Positions 10,465-14,414 are shown, numbered from the stretch's first letter. The stretch is 64,000 nucleotides of DNA from Salinivirgaceae bacterium (GCA_050179685.1 JBFXEW010000017.1:1-64000), one strand, 5' to 3'. Numbers and translations: made by a program. Notes: a model not told the origin generated them from the sequence alone.

Positions 10465-11625
10465 ATGACTATGTCGAATAAACACAAAATTAAAATTTAT
10501 CCAGTAGGCAATGCCGATACAACATTAATAAAAACGAGCGATAACATTACTATTCAGGTTGATTGCCAAATACGTGATGGTGAAGAAGATTCAGATGGTA
10601 TTAAAATCTACGATGTCAAGAAAGATTTAATTAACGATCTGGAAAAAGACACAGATAAAAATCCATTTCTGGACTTATTTGTTTTATCGCATGCACACAA
10701 GGATCATTGTCTAGGATTTGAAGGCAATTATTATTGCGGCGATCCCAACGAATATAAAAAAGAAAATCGCGAAAATGATGAAATTATCATTGGGGAGCTA
10801 TGGGTAACGCAGATGATTTTTGGTAATGATATTTGTGAACAGGCTACGGCTATTCGCAAAGAAGCTAAGCGTAGACGAAAACTTTTTGAAGAAAATCCTA
10901 TAGAAGCTAATAAGCAAGGAAATCGATTACGCATAATTGGGTATAATGATCAGGATAAAATAGTTGATGGCTTAAATTATATCCCAGGAAAAATTGTAAC
11001 ATCTATAAATGGAAAATATACGGGTTTAATCGAAATATTTATCCATGCACCATTTAAAAGTGATTTAGTTACTGGTAAAGCAGATAAAGACCATAATGCA
11101 ACAAGTATTGTATTCCAAATTGCATTACGTGTAACACATGGAGGTGCAATTAAATCAAGAGCTATTTTTGGTGGTGATGCAGACCATTATATATGGGAAA
11201 AAGTTTTAAGAAAATCAGAAGAAAATGGAAATTATGATCGATTAAAATGGGATTTGTTCCTATCTCCACATCATTGTTCATGGTCATTCTTCAACGACCG
11301 CCCTTACGAAGAGAATAAAGAGCCAAAGGATTATTCATTAGAGTTTCTGGACTATAAACAGAATAATGCTTACATCGTTGCATCGAGTAAGAAAATTGTC
11401 GATGATGATAATAATCCACCTCATTATCCAGCAAGAAAAGAATATATTAAAAAAGTAACAGAACCTTATTTTAGAAATACAGCTACACATAAAGGAGAAA
11501 AAGCCCCAAAACCATTAGAGTTTATAATAGATGATGGTGGGCTTACTTTAAAAAAAGAGGCAACTAATGCTGGTGCCGCAATTGCGGGAGGTTCAATTCC
11601 AAGAGCAGGTTCTTATGGAGTATAA
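10465..11625 (+). CDS. metallo-beta-lactamase fold hydrolase (predicted nuclease/phosphodiesterase effector or conjugation substrate)
   Basis: 386 aa; the N-terminal beta-strand region is followed by the MBL motif (HxHxDH as LSHAHKDHCLG), with later His/Asp residues (HAPF, GGDADH, SPHHCSW). The C-terminus is a Gly/Ala-rich flexible tail (NAGAAIAGGSIPRAGSYGV). Confidence 0.6.
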   Translation: MTMSNKHKIKIYPVGNADTTLIKTSDNITIQVDCQIRDGEEDSDGIKIYDVKKDLINDLEKDTDKNPFLDLFVLSHAHKDHCLGFEGNYYCGDPNEYKKENRENDEIIIGELWVTQMIFGNDICEQATAIRKEAKRRRKLFEENPIEANKQGNRLRIIGYNDQDKIVDGLNYIPGKIVTSINGKYTGLIEIFIHAPFKSDLVTGKADKDHNATSIVFQIALRVTHGGAIKSRAIFGGDADHYIWEKVLRKSEENGNYDRLKWDLFLSPHHCSWSFFNDRPYEENKEPKDYSLEFLDYKQNNAYIVASSKKIVDDDNNPPHYPARKEYIKKVTEPYFRNTATHKGEKAPKPLEFIIDDGGLTLKKEATNAGAAIAGGSIPRAGSYGV

Positions 11626-13834
11626 TTATCCAATTATTAAAGGCGAAACAATTACAAAAGAAAACTTGGTGTTAACACGAGCAAAAAAGCTTGCTCGTGT
11701 TCTTTCAAATTATTCAGGCTGTGTTGATGGATCGCTTAGATTTGTAAGAAAAGATAATTATGATGAAGTTATACTTGCAAAGTTTGATATTGAGGTACCA
11801 CAATATCCGAAAAATGGTATAAAAGCTTACGAAGAGGTAGCAATAATTTGCTCGGTAAAAGATGATAATTTTCCTGAAGTATACGCATTAAGGTCTGATT
11901 TTAAAACAGGACTACCACATACTAATGCCAAGACTTTTGAGTATCCAATTAATTTATGTGTAACAGAGGAACTATTTAGGGAAGTCAAGTATAGGTTTAA
12001 TGAGTTTGAATTTGTTTCTAAAATTAGCCGATGGTTTAAGTTAACTGCAATAGATGAACTTCATCAAGAAGATCAACAACTAGAACCATTTTATATTCCT
12101 AAAGGTTATGTTTTAATACCTGAAAATTTTAATCCATTTGAATATAATTCCATTTCCAGAATTGGAAGCTCGATTTATTATAATTTGGTAAAGGAACAAT
12201 CTATAGATAATTCATTTACCTTACAAACATTAAAATCAGACCCAAAAAAACATGGTTATATTCAAAAAATACCTCAAAAATTAAGCGATGTTGATTCAAT
12301 TATTACAATAAAAGGTAGAAATTTCACTTCCTTGATCAAAGAATATTTTGACAATTACCTTAAAGAAATATCTGCAAATAAGTTACTGCTAAATACAAAG
12401 TTGGCATTTAATTGTTTAATTCCGGTTAAAAGAAATAATGAGGATAAAGAAGAGACTTATGAATATTTGTTTTTAATTACGAATTCCACATTACTTCAAT
12501 TAGGTCAAGATTCTGGTTGTCTTGAAAAAATGGATAACGAAATTGTCCAAATCTTTGGTAAAAAATTTGACATTGATATTATAAAAAATATCGAACTTGA
12601 TTTGTATTCATCTGTTTTTGATTTCAATAGAACCTTAGCCTCATTTTATAATAATATAGATCAAGTTAATGACATTTTTACATTAATCGGATCTGGTGCA
12701 TTGGGTTCCCAGTTTCTTGATAATATTTCAAGGTTGGGTTTAGGATATTGGAACGTAATAGATCACGATATATTAGCGCCTCATAACTTAGCAAAACACT
12801 GTTTAGGCAGAGAAGATATTGGTTATAATAAAGCTTCTCAATTAAGTAAAAAACTTAATCAGCTATTAAACTGTGAATTTGCAACCCCAATTGAATCAAA
12901 CTTTCTTGATATTTATAAGGATGAATCGTTTGTAGAAAAACTAAAAAATAGCAAAGCAATTATTGATATGTCAACATCAATTACTGTTGCAAGAGCGCTC
13001 GCTAATGATTTTGGGGAAAACATTAAGGCTCAGCGAATATCATCGTTTTTAAATCCAAAGGGTAATGATTTGGTTATTTTGGCGGAAGACAAAAGACGTA
13101 GGCATCGATTAGATTTTCTAGAAATGCAATATTATCGTAACCTGTTTCATGAAAGCAAGTTGCACAATCATCTACAATTCAATCAATCGCAAAAAATCAG
13201 ATATAATAGGAATAGTTGTCGAGAAATTACGAATAGGATAAACCAAACTGATGTTTCTTTATTATCATCAATTGTAGCGAAGACAATAAAATCACTTACT
13301 GATTCTGGTCAAGCGGCTATTAAAATTTGGAGTATTGATAATGATATATTTGAAGTCTGTAGCTATTCATTTGAACCAACCCGATGGATTCGTAAAAATG
13401 TTGGTGATTGGAAAATTTACGTTGATCATTGGTTAGTTGATAAAATGAAGGATTTCAGAAAATCAAAGCTTCCAAATGAAACAGGTGGTGTTTTAATCGG
13501 TTCATATGATACCGAGCGTAAGATAATTTATGTTTGTGATACTCTGTTTGCTCCAACAGATAGCATTGAAAAAAGTACATCATTTGAACGAGGAAAAGAT
13601 GGTTTGCTTAAAGAATATAAAAAGTATTTAAAAGTTGCAGATGGTCAATTATTTTATATTGGTGAATGGCATTCACATCCAGATTATTGTTCAGTAAATC
13701 CAAGTAATGATGATAAAGAACTTTACAAATATTTATATTACACCATGTCCAAACAAGGCTTTCCTGTAGTCATGGGAATTTTAGGTAATACTGATTGTGA
13801 AATTGTTTTTAAAGATCCAGATTATGAAATTTAA
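11567..13834 (+). CDS. E1-like (ThiF/MoeB) adenylyltransferase fused to C-terminal JAB/JAMM metalloisopeptidase, with ~350-aa N-terminal domain of unknown function (possible E2-like)
   Basis: 755 aa; a Rossmann nucleotide-binding loop of ThiF/E1 type (LIGSGALGSQFLDNISRLGLGYWNVIDHDILAPHNL) is present. The C-terminal JAMM motif reads E...HSHPDYCSVNPSNDD preceded by ETGGVLIGSYD. The likely true start is the ATG at 11615 (MEYNYP), which overlaps the upstream stop by 11 nt. Confidence 0.65.
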   Translation: MLVPQLREVQFQEQVLMEYNYPIIKGETITKENLVLTRAKKLARVLSNYSGCVDGSLRFVRKDNYDEVILAKFDIEVPQYPKNGIKAYEEVAIICSVKDDNFPEVYALRSDFKTGLPHTNAKTFEYPINLCVTEELFREVKYRFNEFEFVSKISRWFKLTAIDELHQEDQQLEPFYIPKGYVLIPENFNPFEYNSISRIGSSIYYNLVKEQSIDNSFTLQTLKSDPKKHGYIQKIPQKLSDVDSIITIKGRNFTSLIKEYFDNYLKEISANKLLLNTKLAFNCLIPVKRNNEDKEETYEYLFLITNSTLLQLGQDSGCLEKMDNEIVQIFGKKFDIDIIKNIELDLYSSVFDFNRTLASFYNNIDQVNDIFTLIGSGALGSQFLDNISRLGLGYWNVIDHDILAPHNLAKHCLGREDIGYNKASQLSKKLNQLLNCEFATPIESNFLDIYKDESFVEKLKNSKAIIDMSTSITVARALANDFGENIKAQRISSFLNPKGNDLVILAEDKRRRHRLDFLEMQYYRNLFHESKLHNHLQFNQSQKIRYNRNSCREITNRINQTDVSLLSSIVAKTIKSLTDSGQAAIKIWSIDNDIFEVCSYSFEPTRWIRKNVGDWKIYVDHWLVDKMKDFRKSKLPNETGGVLIGSYDTERKIIYVCDTLFAPTDSIEKSTSFERGKDGLLKEYKKYLKVADGQLFYIGEWHSHPDYCSVNPSNDDKELYKYLYYTMSKQGFPVVMGILGNTDCEIVFKDPDYEI

Positions 13835-14414
13835 GTATTATGATTTAATGTCGCATTTGGTACCTGGTCTAGTGATTTACTTTTTCGTAGATTATGAGTT
13901 TAAGGGGAATATGCCTGATATTTCGGCCCTTCCATTATTGGCCATTACTTTTATAATAGGGTATTTCAATAATACCATTTCTTCTTGGTTAGAGGGATTT
14001 TATCGATCTTTAACTGGTGGCAATCCAGTTAATAAGTTTTTTGATGGTGCTGGAATTTGGAAAGTAGATTATTTTAATGGTACCAAAATGAAAGAATTGT
14101 TGAAATCAAGTATTGTGAAAGATAATCCAAGTAATAAAGAATTGTTTGTAGAAGCAATGCGTATTGCTAATTCTAAAGCAGATGCAAGAGTTATAGATTT
14201 TAATGCTTCGTATGCTTTTTCAAGAGGAATACTAACAAATATGTTATTTGTTGCAGGAATTTTAATCTATTCAAATTACACAAATCCATGGTATTATATT
14301 GTTTTAGTATCGCTATTAACAGTCGCTTTATTACGTTATCATCAGCGTGGAGGTTATTATATTAGAGAGGTGTTAAATGTATGTCAACATGAATTAGAAT
14401 CCCAAATTGAATAA
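13797..14414 (+). CDS. small integral membrane protein (3 predicted TM helices)
   Basis: 205 aa; hydrophobic segments are visible (LVPGLVIYFFV, LLAITFIIGYF, MLFVAGILIYS...IVLVSLLTVALL). It overlaps the end of the E1-JAB gene. Confidence 0.4.
   Translation: MKLFLKIQIMKFKYYDLMSHLVPGLVIYFFVDYEFKGNMPDISALPLLAITFIIGYFNNTISSWLEGFYRSLTGGNPVNKFFDGAGIWKVDYFNGTKMKELLKSSIVKDNPSNKELFVEAMRIANSKADARVIDFNASYAFSRGILTNMLFVAGILIYSNYTNPWYYIVLVSLLTVALLRYHQRGGYYIREVLNVCQHELESQIE

What the first reader, a model, noticed from the sequence alone, without database searches (positions are those of the whole stretch)
10465..14414. Candidate undescribed defense module: MBL-fold protein + (E2?)-E1-JAB fusion + small membrane protein, inserted inside a Type I R-M operon
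Three co-directional, overlapping genes: an MBL-fold hydrolase (HxHxDH motif), a 755-aa protein, and a 205-aa protein with three TM segments. The 755-aa protein combines a ThiF/E1 Rossmann domain with a C-terminal JAMM/JAB isopeptidase (HSHPDY...S..DD) and an uncharacterised ~350-aa N-terminal domain. An E1 + JAB pair is the regulatory core of type II CBASS (Cap2/Cap3) and of Bil/Bub ubiquitin-like antiphage systems. Here the cargo is an MBL-fold protein rather than a CD-NTase, and no separate Ubl or E2 gene is present. The cassette sits between hsdS and hsdR alongside an Abi-like pair, a context that strongly suggests an immune function. I cannot verify whether this exact architecture has been experimentally characterised. 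Earlier comparative surveys of prokaryotic E1/JAB operons noted occasional MBL neighbours, but to my knowledge none has a demonstrated function.
Basis: partly seen in the sequence, partly recalled or inferred. Interest (0 to 1): 0.85.

Follow-up and report, generated by a model that had tools for sequence, protein, structure and literature searches.

The report
Known 6A-MBL anti-phage system, plus membrane partner
The three genes are real, but the first two form the already named and tested "6A-MBL" anti-phage system (a metallo-hydrolase with a ubiquitin-like tail plus a fused E2-E1-deubiquitinase), and the small membrane protein is a frequent, little-described third partner.

Summary
Three co-directional genes with 11-nt overlaps sit between hsdS and hsdR of a Type I R-M operon, next to an AbiL (RloB) pair.

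The claim that the module is undescribed is not supported.
- The MBL protein scores 368 bits against NCBIfam NF058524, "anti-phage 6A-MBL system MBL-fold protein" (cut-off 220).
- The large protein scores 512 bits against NF058523, "6A-MBL system cap2_3" (cut-off 320).
- The architecture is row 6a of Iyer, Burroughs and Aravind 2006. Later papers cite van den Berg et al. 2024 for its anti-phage activity in Pseudomonas aeruginosa; I could not read that paper.
- The "uncharacterised" N-terminus is an E2 domain (Prok-E2_A). All E2, E1 and JAMM catalytic residues are intact.

New detail found here:
- In 75 of 76 related loci the MBL ends in a P-R-A-G motif followed by 0-6 variable residues. Here it reads ...PRAG|SYGV. 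This is a ubiquitin-like handle that the JAB domain probably has to trim.
- The modelled MBL fold is closest to the ComEC nuclease domain and the Pce phosphodiesterase.
- The third gene is 196 aa with four TM helices. It belongs to a Csx27/PDC-M48A-like family found in 50 of 83 related loci. Patatin phospholipase (15 of 83) or DUF6338 replaces it elsewhere, and E. coli plasmid versions have no third gene.

Verdict: a new member of a known system, of modest interest.

The parts
10465..11625 (+). 6A-MBL enzyme: an MBL-fold metallo-hydrolase of 386 aa (an alternative start at 10471 gives 384 aa). The HxHxDH motif is at residues 76-81 (nt 10690-10707). The C-terminal tail is disordered.
11599..11622 (+). 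C-terminal conjugation handle of the MBL: P379-R-A-G382 (nt 11599-11610), followed by four trailing residues S-Y-G-V (nt 11611-11622). The trailing residues lie largely in the overlap with the next gene's start (ATG 11615).
   Evidence: [P/x]-[R/K]-[A/V/M]-G lies at or within 6 residues of the C-terminus in 75 of 76 MBLs adjacent to an E2-E1-JAB gene; 39 end exactly at the Gly. The same holds in close homologues and on E. coli, Hymenobacter and Acinetobacter plasmids.
11615..13834 (+). Cap2_3 fusion protein (E2-E1-JAB) of 739 aa from ATG 11615. The open frame extends upstream to 11567.
   Evidence: NCBIfam NF058523 at 512 bits against a cut-off of 320. Pfam Prok-E2_A, ThiF and Prok-JAB. The NCBI-annotated 739-aa protein P0042 is 100% identical.
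11789..12103 (+). E2-like domain, with a P-H-T-N motif (H102/N104 in 739-aa numbering) and the catalytic Cys115 (codon at nt 11957).
   Evidence: Pfam PF14457 at 3.4e-16. H102, N104 and C115 are invariant in 15 sequences of 30-57% identity. Coordinates.
12608..13306 (+). E1 (ThiF/Cap2-like) adenylation domain. It carries GxGxxGS (residues 359-365), D385, K406, D451 and R460, and the candidate E1 catalytic Cys535 (codon at nt 13217).
   Evidence: The best PDB sequence matches are Cap2 (7tsx, 7tsq, 7to3; E 1e-19 to 7e-19). PADLOC E1-E2 models reach up to 92 bits. Invariant residues.
13391..13798 (+). JAB/JAMM metalloprotease domain (Cap3-like): E622, H686-S-H688, S697 and D700.
   Evidence: Pfam Prok-JAB at 4.4e-10. 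PADLOC JAB at 90.5 bits. NCBIfam Cap3 at 1.4e-8. The JAMM residues are invariant.
13824..14414 (+). Third gene: a 196-aa four-helix membrane protein of the Csx27/PDC-M48A-like family. The family signature is N127-x2-Y130-x3-R134.
   Evidence: 41 homologues, several on the same contigs as MBL and E2-E1-JAB homologues. AF2 pLDDT 91.2, all-helical. The family is present in 50 of 83 related loci. 25 of 34 family members hit PADLOC Csx27 and 23 of 34 hit PDC-M48A; the window protein itself hits only PDC-M48A, at 2.5e-5 to 4.6e-5.
10296..10406 (+). Small 36-aa basic ORF upstream of the MBL gene. It may belong to the operon; its function is unknown.
   Evidence: Called as a gene on three independent contigs. 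46-50% identical peptides lie upstream of the MBL gene in Tenacibaculum (L004) and Cellulophaga (L027) loci. No Pfam family.
3940..6716 (+). Context: hsdM (3940-5547) and hsdS (5544-6716) of the Type I R-M operon.
   Evidence: Pfam N6_Mtase, HsdM_N and Methylase_S.
7841..9798 (+). Context: AbiLi (AAA_21 ATPase, 7841-9109) and AbiLii/RloB (9109-9798).
   Evidence: PADLOC AbiLi at 312 bits and AbiLii at 85 bits. Pfam AAA_21 and RloB.
14504..17896 (+). Context: hsdR, the Type I restriction subunit, with an N-terminal DUF4145 domain.
   Evidence: Pfam ResIII, EcoEI_R_C, HSDR_N and DUF4145. PADLOC REase_I at 564 bits.

Best explanation
This is a member of the known 6A-MBL anti-phage system, carried in a Salinivirgaceae (Bacteroidales) genome inside a Type I R-M / AbiL defence island.

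Proposed mechanism, step by step:
1. The MBL-fold enzyme is made with a flexible C-terminal tail ending ...P-R-A-G382-S-Y-G-V. (Shown: the sequence and the model.)
2. The JAB domain of the neighbouring E2-E1-JAB protein trims the four trailing residues and exposes Gly382. (Inferred from comparative data and from Ubl/Bil precedent.)
3. The Cap2-like E1 domain adenylates that glycine and passes the enzyme through thioesters on the E1 cysteine (C535) and the E2 cysteine (C115) to lysines on still unknown targets. The JAB domain also reverses this, which keeps the system poised. (Inferred by homology to Cap2/Cap3 of type II CBASS.)
4. On infection, the conjugated or primed MBL acts as the effector. 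Its fold suggests a binuclear-metal phosphodiesterase of the ComEC nuclease / Pce type, so it most likely cuts nucleic acid. (Inferred from the fold.)
5. The 4-TM Csx27-like protein encoded in the same operon is an accessory module that couples this activity to the membrane or adds membrane damage. It is exchangeable with patatin phospholipase or DUF6338 in other lineages, and is dispensable in the two-gene versions. (Inferred from gene neighbourhoods.)
For: Identity:
- NF058524 scores 368 bits (cut-off 220) and NF058523 scores 512 bits (cut-off 320).
- The E2 + ThiF + JAB order is confirmed by Pfam.
- 6A-MBL is cited as a validated anti-phage system. It is also cited as a pathway that uses a fused E2-E1 to conjugate its enzyme.

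Conservation:
- At least 463 stretches in a collection of species-representative genomes encode a relative.
- An MBL gene lies directly upstream in 76 of 83 loci.

Mechanism:
- All E2, E1 and JAMM catalytic residues are invariant and present in the window protein.
- The E1 domain's best match among solved structures is Cap2.
- The PRAG motif with 0-6 variable trailing residues occurs in 75 of 76 loci, and 39 of them end at the Gly.
- The tail is disordered in the AF2 model.
- The MBL metal ligands are invariant.

Third gene:
- It overlaps the E2-E1-JAB stop by 11 nt.
- The family lies directly downstream on the same strand in 35 of 83 loci. It lies directly upstream of the MBL in 7, and on the opposite strand or nearby in 9.
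- Patatin takes that slot in 15 loci and DUF6338 in an Acinetobacter plasmid.
Against: - No experiment on this locus exists. The defining 2024 paper could not be read here, so what it showed about mechanism and gene content is known only second-hand.
- Conjugation of the MBL, JAB trimming and the conjugation targets are all inferred.
- The substrate of the MBL is unknown. Its two nearest folds act on DNA (ComEC) and on a cell-wall phosphodiester (Pce), so 'nuclease' is a guess.
- PMC11601596 refers to the conjugated proteins collectively as 'signaling enzymes'. That wording would fit a signal-making rather than an effector role.
- The window's own 4-TM protein matches PADLOC PDC-M48A only weakly and over part of its length (E 2.5e-5), and it does not itself reach the Csx27 model.
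Confidence: 0.85

Rival explanations
1. Signal-relay model, closer to CBASS. The MBL is not the killing effector. It makes, processes or senses a small molecule or an infection cue. The E2-E1-JAB protein primes it, and the variable third gene (4-TM here; patatin or DUF6338 elsewhere) is the true abortive-infection effector that damages the membrane.
For: - The third slot is filled by three unrelated membrane-directed proteins. They cover 65 of 83 loci (4-TM in 50, patatin in 15), plus DUF6338 on a plasmid. This is the pattern seen for swappable CBASS effectors.
- The patatins give weak hits to CBASS phospholipase models.
- PMC11601596 calls the conjugated proteins 'signaling enzymes'.
- A related 4-TM family, Csx27, accompanies Cas13b as an accessory.
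Against: - Two-gene versions with no third gene are common on enterobacterial plasmids, and NCBIfam's models cover only two proteins.
- Neither the 4-TM protein nor the patatins show a recognisable ligand-sensing domain.
- The MBL fold is hydrolytic and is not known to synthesise signals.
Confidence: 0.2
2. The third gene is not part of the 6A-MBL system. It would be an independent gene, or the leftover 'A' half of a separate PDC-M48-type pair (small TM protein + its own MBL) that happens to lie next to the two-gene system.
For: - In Tenacibaculum and a related metagenomic contig, the 4-TM gene is followed by its own second MBL, which matches PADLOC PDC-M48B at 347 bits.
- 4-TM + MBL pairs exist without any E2-E1-JAB gene (L008/L009, L010).
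- Two-gene 6A-MBL loci exist.
Against: - In the window the gene overlaps the E2-E1-JAB stop codon by 11 nt, and no second MBL follows it.
- The same arrangement recurs in 35 of 83 loci across many phyla, down to about 30% identity of the E2-E1-JAB protein.
- In 7 loci the gene has moved to just upstream of the 6A-type MBL and is still attached to the pair.
Confidence: 0.2
3. Housekeeping sulfur-carrier or cofactor pathway (ThiF/MoeB-type adenylation of ThiS/MoaD), or a degenerate type II CBASS/Pycsar operon that has lost its cyclase.
For: The E1 domain gives weak hits to ThiF/MoeB models. PADLOC CBASS E1-E2 and JAB models match.
Against: - All ThiF/MoeB hits are far below their cut-offs, at 15-33 bits against cut-offs of about 150-510 bits.
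- No ThiS/MoaD, CD-NTase or cyclase gene is present.
- The E2 and JAB domains are fused and intact.
- The partner is always the 6A-type MBL with a PRAG tail.
- The locus sits between R-M and Abi genes.
Confidence: 0.02

Closest known systems
6A-MBL anti-phage system (operon type 6a of Iyer, Burroughs & Aravind 2006; named and tested by van den Berg et al. 2024; NCBIfam NF058523/NF058524)
   Same: - Both core proteins pass the equivalog cut-offs.
- The gene order is the same (MBL, then E2-E1-JAB) and so is the domain order.
- The catalytic residues are intact.
- The MBL carries the PRAG C-terminal handle shared by 75 of 76 relatives, including E. coli, Hymenobacter and Acinetobacter plasmid copies.
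   Different: - The host is a Bacteroidales bacterium, about 28-31% identical in the E2-E1-JAB protein to the enterobacterial, Acinetobacter and Hymenobacter plasmid copies examined.
- It carries a third, overlapping 4-TM gene that NCBIfam does not model.
- It lacks the divergent WYL regulator seen next to the plasmid copies.
- It is embedded between hsdS and hsdR.
Type II CBASS (CD-NTase + Cap2 E2-E1 + Cap3 JAB + effector)
   Same: - Cap2 is the closest solved relative of the E1 domain, and Cap3-type JAB models match.
- The logic is the same: the system's own enzyme is conjugated through its C-terminal residue, and a JAB protease reverses it.
- A variable, often membrane-directed extra gene is present.
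   Different: - There is no CD-NTase and no cyclic-nucleotide sensor domain.
- Cap2 and Cap3 are fused into one polypeptide.
- The conjugated enzyme is a hydrolase of the MBL fold.
PADLOC candidate system PDC-M48 (A: small TM protein; B: MBL-fold protein)
   Same: - The window's third protein and 23 of 34 family members hit PDC-M48A.
- The second MBL that follows the 4-TM gene in some 6A-MBL loci is a clear PDC-M48B (347 bits).
- 4-TM + MBL pairs occur without an E2-E1-JAB gene.
   Different: - The window hits are weak: PDC-M48A at 2.5e-5 over about 55 residues, and the MBL against PDC-M48B at 0.006.
- The window's MBL is the 6A type with a PRAG tail, and an E2-E1-JAB gene sits between the two.
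Csx27, accessory membrane protein of type VI-B1 CRISPR-Cas13b
   Same: 25 of 34 members of the third-gene family match the PADLOC Csx27 model (best E 9.5e-14) over nearly its full length. Size and multi-TM character are the same. Both occur mainly in Bacteroidota defence loci.
   Different: The window protein itself does not reach the Csx27 model at E 0.01. There is no Cas13b or CRISPR array in the window. The mechanism of Csx27 is itself unknown; it was reported to repress Cas13b interference (bioRxiv 10.1101/092577).
Bil / Bub bacterial ubiquitination-like systems
   Same: They use E1, E2 and JAB-type chemistry for anti-phage or related protein conjugation. A peptidase exposes the reactive C-terminus.
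   Different: Those systems encode a separate Ubl protein and separate E1 and E2 proteins. Here no Ubl gene exists, and the enzyme's own tail plays that part.

Membership tests
6A-MBL anti-phage system | MBL-fold protein of the 6A-MBL equivalog family | tested here: met
6A-MBL anti-phage system | [quoted passage not shown] | tested here: met
   NF058523 at 512.2 bits against a cut-off of 320. Pfam Prok-E2_A at 75-179, ThiF at 372-472 and Prok-JAB at 624-733.
6A-MBL anti-phage system | The two genes are adjacent and co-directional, with the MBL next to the triple-module gene | tested here: met
   The MBL stop is at 11625 and the E2-E1-JAB ATG at 11615, an 11-nt overlap. The same adjacency holds in 76 of 83 related loci.
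6A-MBL anti-phage system | Intact catalytic residues: E2 Cys, E1 Rossmann motif and Cys, JAMM motif, MBL metal ligands | tested here: met
   The invariant columns C115, G359xGxxG364, D451, C535, E622, H686/H688, S697 and D700 are all present in the window protein. MBL residues H76, H78, D80, H81, H194, D238, H269 and H270 are present.
6A-MBL anti-phage system | Protects against phage (reported for jumbo phages in P. aeruginosa) | not testable with these tools
   Known only from citations. The original paper is not held.
Type II CBASS | CD-NTase (cGAS/DncV-like nucleotidyltransferase) gene in the operon | tested here: not met
   No CD-NTase hit in Pfam, PADLOC or NCBIfam for any gene between 3940 and 17896.
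Type II CBASS | Cap2 (E2-E1) and Cap3 (JAB) homologues | tested here: met
   PDB Cap2 at E 1e-19. PADLOC E1-E2 at 92 bits and JAB at 90 bits. Here the two are fused into one protein.
Type II CBASS | Effector activated by a cyclic nucleotide | tested here: inconclusive
   The third gene is a 4-TM protein with no recognisable sensor domain. Whether any signal exists is unknown.
Bil/Bub ubiquitination-like systems | Separate Ubl (beta-grasp) protein gene | tested here: not met
   No such gene lies between 9798 and 14504. The only extra ORF is a 36-aa basic peptide with no family.
PADLOC PDC-M48 | PDC-M48A small TM protein plus PDC-M48B MBL protein | tested here: inconclusive
   The third protein hits PDC-M48A at 2.5e-5 (residues 9-63 only). 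The MBL hits PDC-M48B at 0.006. At family level, 23 of 34 members hit PDC-M48A.
Csx27 (type VI-B1 accessory) | Match to the Csx27 profile and association with Cas13b | tested here: not met
   The window protein gives no Csx27 hit at E 0.01, although 25 of 34 relatives do. No Cas13b-sized candidate was found in the window.
ThiF/MoeB sulfur-carrier pathways | Equivalog-level ThiF/MoeB match plus a ThiS/MoaD partner | tested here: not met
   The best ThiF/MoeB scores are 15-33 bits against cut-offs of about 150-510 bits. There is no ThiS/MoaD gene.

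The most novel reading that the evidence does not exclude
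In most lineages 6A-MBL would really be a three-part system. Its third slot holds interchangeable membrane-directed proteins: a Csx27-like 4-TM protein, patatin phospholipase or DUF6338. On this reading the MBL + 4-TM pair (PADLOC PDC-M48-like) is the ancestral core, and the E2-E1-JAB protein is a regulatory insert, much as Cap2/Cap3 turn type I CBASS into type II. It would also give the long-unexplained Cas13b accessory Csx27 a family context, as a membrane module that partners with nucleic-acid-cutting defence enzymes.
Probability: 0.3. Interest if true: 0.55.

Novelty: new member of a known kind. Interest (0 to 1): 0.3.

Why it matters
For the scan, the candidate should be filed as a known system rather than a discovery.

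The comparative results may still be useful to people who work on bacterial ubiquitin-like immunity:
- The near-universal ...PRAG(+0-6 residues) tail gives a precise, testable conjugation and processing site for the MBL enzyme.
- The ComEC/Pce-like fold narrows the candidate substrates.
- The recurrent but exchangeable membrane partner (Csx27/PDC-M48A-like 4-TM, patatin or DUF6338) suggests that the two-gene definition used for annotation is incomplete. It also links 6A-MBL, PDC-M48 and Cas13b accessory proteins.
- The locus is a clean example of a Type I R-M operon used as a landing pad for other defence cassettes.

Tried and rejected
- **Close-relative scan.** A scan of species-representative genomes with the single protein found nothing. 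The alignment-based scan worked.
- **Original paper.** The 2024 6A-MBL paper and the Cap2 paper (Ledvina 2023) are not held. A broad literature search on 'E2-E1-JAB / metallo-beta-lactamase' returned only antibiotic-resistance papers.
- **MBL in Pfam.** Pfam gives no hit for the MBL protein at E 0.01, and a PDB sequence search gives nothing significant. Only NCBIfam and the fold search identified it.
- **Acceptor lysine idea.** The invariant K80 of the close 4-TM homologues looked like a possible acceptor lysine. I rejected this because the column is not conserved in the wider family.
- **Fusion evidence.** A 606-aa member of the 4-TM family (P0313) was checked as a possible 4-TM-MBL fusion. 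It has no MBL domain.
- **Insertion scars.** No credible direct or inverted repeats flank the cassette.
- **Promoters and terminators.** The sigma-70 promoter scan was no better than shuffled sequence (35 sites against 42.5 expected). It is not suited to Bacteroidota.
- **Phage genomes.** None of 50,697 phage records carries a relative of the E2-E1-JAB protein.
- **Small ORF and 292-aa gene.** Pfam gave no meaningful hit for the 36-aa ORF or the 292-aa gene.

Full report
**1. The observation**

The three ORFs are present as described. Homologue alignments refine two starts.
- The large gene begins at ATG 11615, giving 739 aa. This is the annotated form in an NCBI Salinivirgaceae MAG record that is 100% identical.
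- The third gene begins at ATG 13824, giving 196 aa. All 33 aligned homologues start M-x-F-K-Y-Y-D.
- With these starts, each gene junction overlaps by 11 nt, which indicates one tightly coupled operon.

The operon follows a 667-bp spacer after the AbiL pair and precedes hsdR by 89 bp.

The neighbours are hsdM, hsdS, an unknown 292-aa gene, AbiLi/AbiLii (RloB) and hsdR. The inserted cassettes have 28-33% G+C, against about 40-44% in hsdM and in the first ~2 kb of hsdR. The same arrangement is found on an independent 24-kb metagenomic contig.

**2. What the proteins are**

*The large protein.* Pfam finds three domains above their cut-offs: Prok-E2_A (residues 75-179), ThiF (372-472) and Prok-JAB (624-733).

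*NCBIfam assignment.* The two core proteins match 'anti-phage 6A-MBL system MBL-fold protein' (NF058524, 368 bits, cut-off 220) and 'anti-phage 6A-MBL system cap2_3 protein' (NF058523, 512 bits, cut-off 320). The 2023 PADLOC library recognises only the CBASS-type E1-E2 and JAB parts.

*Catalytic residues.* I aligned 15 E2-E1-JAB proteins of 30-57% identity. The following residues are invariant and present in the window protein (739-aa numbering):
- E2: the P-H-T-N motif and Cys115.
- E1: GxGxxGS (residues 359-365), D385, K406, D451 and R460, and the pair C535-R536.
- JAB: the full JAMM set E622, H686-S-H688, S697 and D700.

The closest solved relative of the E1 domain is Cap2 of type II CBASS (E about 1e-19).

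**3. Literature**

The architecture is row 6a of Table 1 in Iyer, Burroughs and Aravind 2006. [quoted passage not shown]

Later papers cite van den Berg et al. 2024 for anti-phage activity of '6A-MBL' in Pseudomonas aeruginosa (PMC13276650). Another lists it among jumbo-phage defence systems (bioRxiv 10.1101/2025.09.30.679545). PMC11601596 groups 'Type II CBASS/Pycsar/MBL' as pathways that use a fused E2-E1 to conjugate their own enzyme, with a JAB peptidase as negative regulator or processing enzyme. The 2024 paper itself is not in the library.

**4. Comparative genomics**

An alignment-based scan of one genome per species found at least 463 stretches that encode a relative. I fetched 80 loci from many phyla and added three obtained earlier, giving 83.
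- A 6A-type MBL gene lies directly upstream of the E2-E1-JAB gene in 76 of the 83 loci. Most of the others are cut by a contig end.
- In 75 of those 76, the MBL ends with [P]-[R/K]-[A/V/M]-G. PRAG occurs in 53.
- The motif is at the very C-terminus in 39 and is followed by 1-6 unconserved residues in the rest.
- The same holds in the closest 70-odd homologues and in E. coli, Hymenobacter and Acinetobacter plasmid copies.

The window protein reads ...S-I-P-R-A-G382|S-Y-G-V. The four trailing residues lie largely in the overlap with the next gene's start codon. In the AF2 model (pLDDT 88.5) residues 366-386 are disordered.

This is the signature of a ubiquitin-like C-terminus: a fixed glycine on a flexible tail, with a dispensable extension that a peptidase must remove. 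I take it as strong indirect evidence that the MBL itself is the substrate of the E1 domain, and that the JAB domain trims it as well as deconjugating it.

**5. The MBL enzyme**

A phosphodiesterase activity, most likely on nucleic acid, is the best guess. The substrate is not established.

**6. The third gene**

*Conservation.* It has 41 detectable homologues, several on the same contigs as MBL and E2-E1-JAB homologues. One example is the adjacent locus tags HNV12_13940, _13945 and _13950.

*Distribution.* An iterated profile finds a member in 50 of the 83 loci:
- 35 directly downstream on the same strand;
- 7 directly upstream of the MBL gene;
- 4 downstream on the opposite strand;
- 5 nearby (one locus, L015, has two copies).

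The family keeps a signature N127-x2-Y130-x3-R134 across 85 sequences. It is small: 895 representatives among 1.84 billion.

*Relatives.* 25 of 34 members hit the PADLOC model of Csx27, the membrane accessory protein of type VI-B1 Cas13b systems. 23 of 34 hit PDC-M48A. The window protein itself reaches only PDC-M48A, and only weakly. Csx27 was reported to repress Cas13b interference, and its mechanism remains unknown (bioRxiv 10.1101/092577).

*Independent pairs.* The same 4-TM family also pairs with other MBL-fold proteins where no E2-E1-JAB gene is present (L008/L009, L010). In at least seven 6A-MBL loci it is followed by a second MBL. The one tested (L004) is a clear PDC-M48B, at 347 bits.

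*Alternatives in the same slot.* In 15 loci a patatin-like phospholipase takes the place of the 4-TM gene. In an Acinetobacter plasmid the slot holds a DUF6338 membrane protein. E. coli plasmid pSE11-2 has no third gene; a divergently transcribed WYL gene lies upstream of the pair, as it does in the Hymenobacter and Acinetobacter plasmids.

The third gene is therefore a frequent, exchangeable and non-essential-looking membrane partner. It is not a defining component of the system.

**7. How it most likely works**

The best-supported reading follows type II CBASS logic with a different enzyme.
- The JAB domain trims the tail to Gly382.
- The E1 domain adenylates it.
- The enzyme passes through the E1 and E2 cysteines onto target lysines, which primes it.
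- The JAB domain reverses this.
- On infection, the MBL phosphodiesterase acts as the effector.
- The 4-TM protein adds a membrane-linked function or localises the enzyme.

What is shown here: the sequence features, the intact active sites, the fold, the tail motif and the gene linkage. What is inferred: every biochemical step, the substrate, the targets and the role of the third gene.

The main rival is a signal-relay model, in which the variable third gene is the real effector. The swappable membrane proteins support it, and the two-gene versions weaken it. A second rival is that the third gene belongs to a separate PDC-M48-type module.

**8. Comparison and verdict**

Every testable defining feature of 6A-MBL is met. 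Membership of type II CBASS fails because there is no CD-NTase. Membership of Bil/Bub fails because there is no Ubl gene. ThiF/MoeB housekeeping pathways fail because the scores are far below cut-off and there is no carrier protein.

The finding is a real, intact defence operon, but it is a new member of a known system rather than an undescribed one. Interest is modest. It rests on the conserved PRAG handle, the ComEC/Pce-like fold and the Csx27/PDC-M48A-like third gene. I could not check any of these against the primary 6A-MBL paper.

Noticed in passing
window 10296-10406 (+): A 36-aa, very basic ORF (MAKTNEGKKKVHVPEHTKKVGTRTVKVREHYRSTPN) lies upstream of the MBL gene. It is called as a gene on three contigs. 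Peptides 46-50% identical lie upstream of the MBL gene in Tenacibaculum (L004) and Cellulophaga (L027) 6A-MBL loci. It has no Pfam family.
   Followed up: partly
proteins P0175, P0207, P0210 (L091, L092 and one contig without DNA): Homologues of the 6A-type MBL at about 47-53% identity lack the PRAG tail; their tails end HRFYGE, GHWAE or KKPWRL. They are not next to an E2-E1-JAB gene. One sits beside a stand-alone 135-aa E2-CBASS protein (PF26395) plus a second MBL. The others sit beside small unknown proteins. The MBL family therefore appears in several regulatory formats, much as CBASS does.
   Followed up: partly
L019, L029, L030, L035-L037, L053, L059, L070, L075, L082, L083, L086, L088, L089 (directly downstream of the E2-E1-JAB gene): Fifteen of 83 6A-MBL loci carry a patatin-like phospholipase (PF01734), with a 150-250-aa C-terminal extension, in the position the 4-TM gene holds in the window. 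They give weak hits to CBASS phospholipase effector models.
   Followed up: partly
L093 (E. coli pSE11-2), L094 (Hymenobacter plasmid), L095 (Acinetobacter plasmid): Plasmid-borne 6A-MBL pairs have a divergently transcribed WYL-domain gene immediately upstream, reminiscent of CapW-type regulators of CBASS. 283 plasmids carry a relative of the E2-E1-JAB protein, including 165 from Klebsiella. None of 50,697 phage records does.
   Followed up: partly
window 17930-21846 (-): Four low-G+C (27-31%) genes lie just after hsdR on the opposite strand: 207 aa, 367 aa, a 297-aa WYL-domain protein and 325 aa. Three of them have no Pfam or PADLOC hit. This may be another, uncharacterised defence cassette with its WYL regulator.
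   Followed up: partly
window 6762-7640 (+): A 292-aa gene between hsdS and AbiLi has no significant hit in Pfam, PADLOC or NCBIfam. It is a further unknown passenger inside the R-M operon.
   Followed up: partly
window 14504-15100 (+), N-terminus of hsdR: HsdR carries an N-terminal DUF4145 domain, and its first 194 residues match PADLOC candidate PDC-M16A (1e-19). A stand-alone DUF4145 protein also occurs in the PDC-M48-like locus L008/L009.
   Followed up: no
alignment A2, column of residue 78 of the window MBL: The second histidine of HxHxDH is H in 22 and D in 22 of 44 family members (HxDxDH). All other metal ligands are invariant. This may mark two sub-types with different metal sites.
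   Followed up: no
window 1-3400 and 22000-64000: The rest of the window looks like ordinary chromosome: SPFH, RtcB, a DEAD helicase, a molybdopterin oxidoreductase, trehalose synthesis genes, an AcrB efflux pump and a histidine kinase. There are no tRNA genes, and none of the flanking genes examined is an integrase. The island of about 18 kb (3.9-21.9 kb) is marked mainly by its low G+C.
   Followed up: partly
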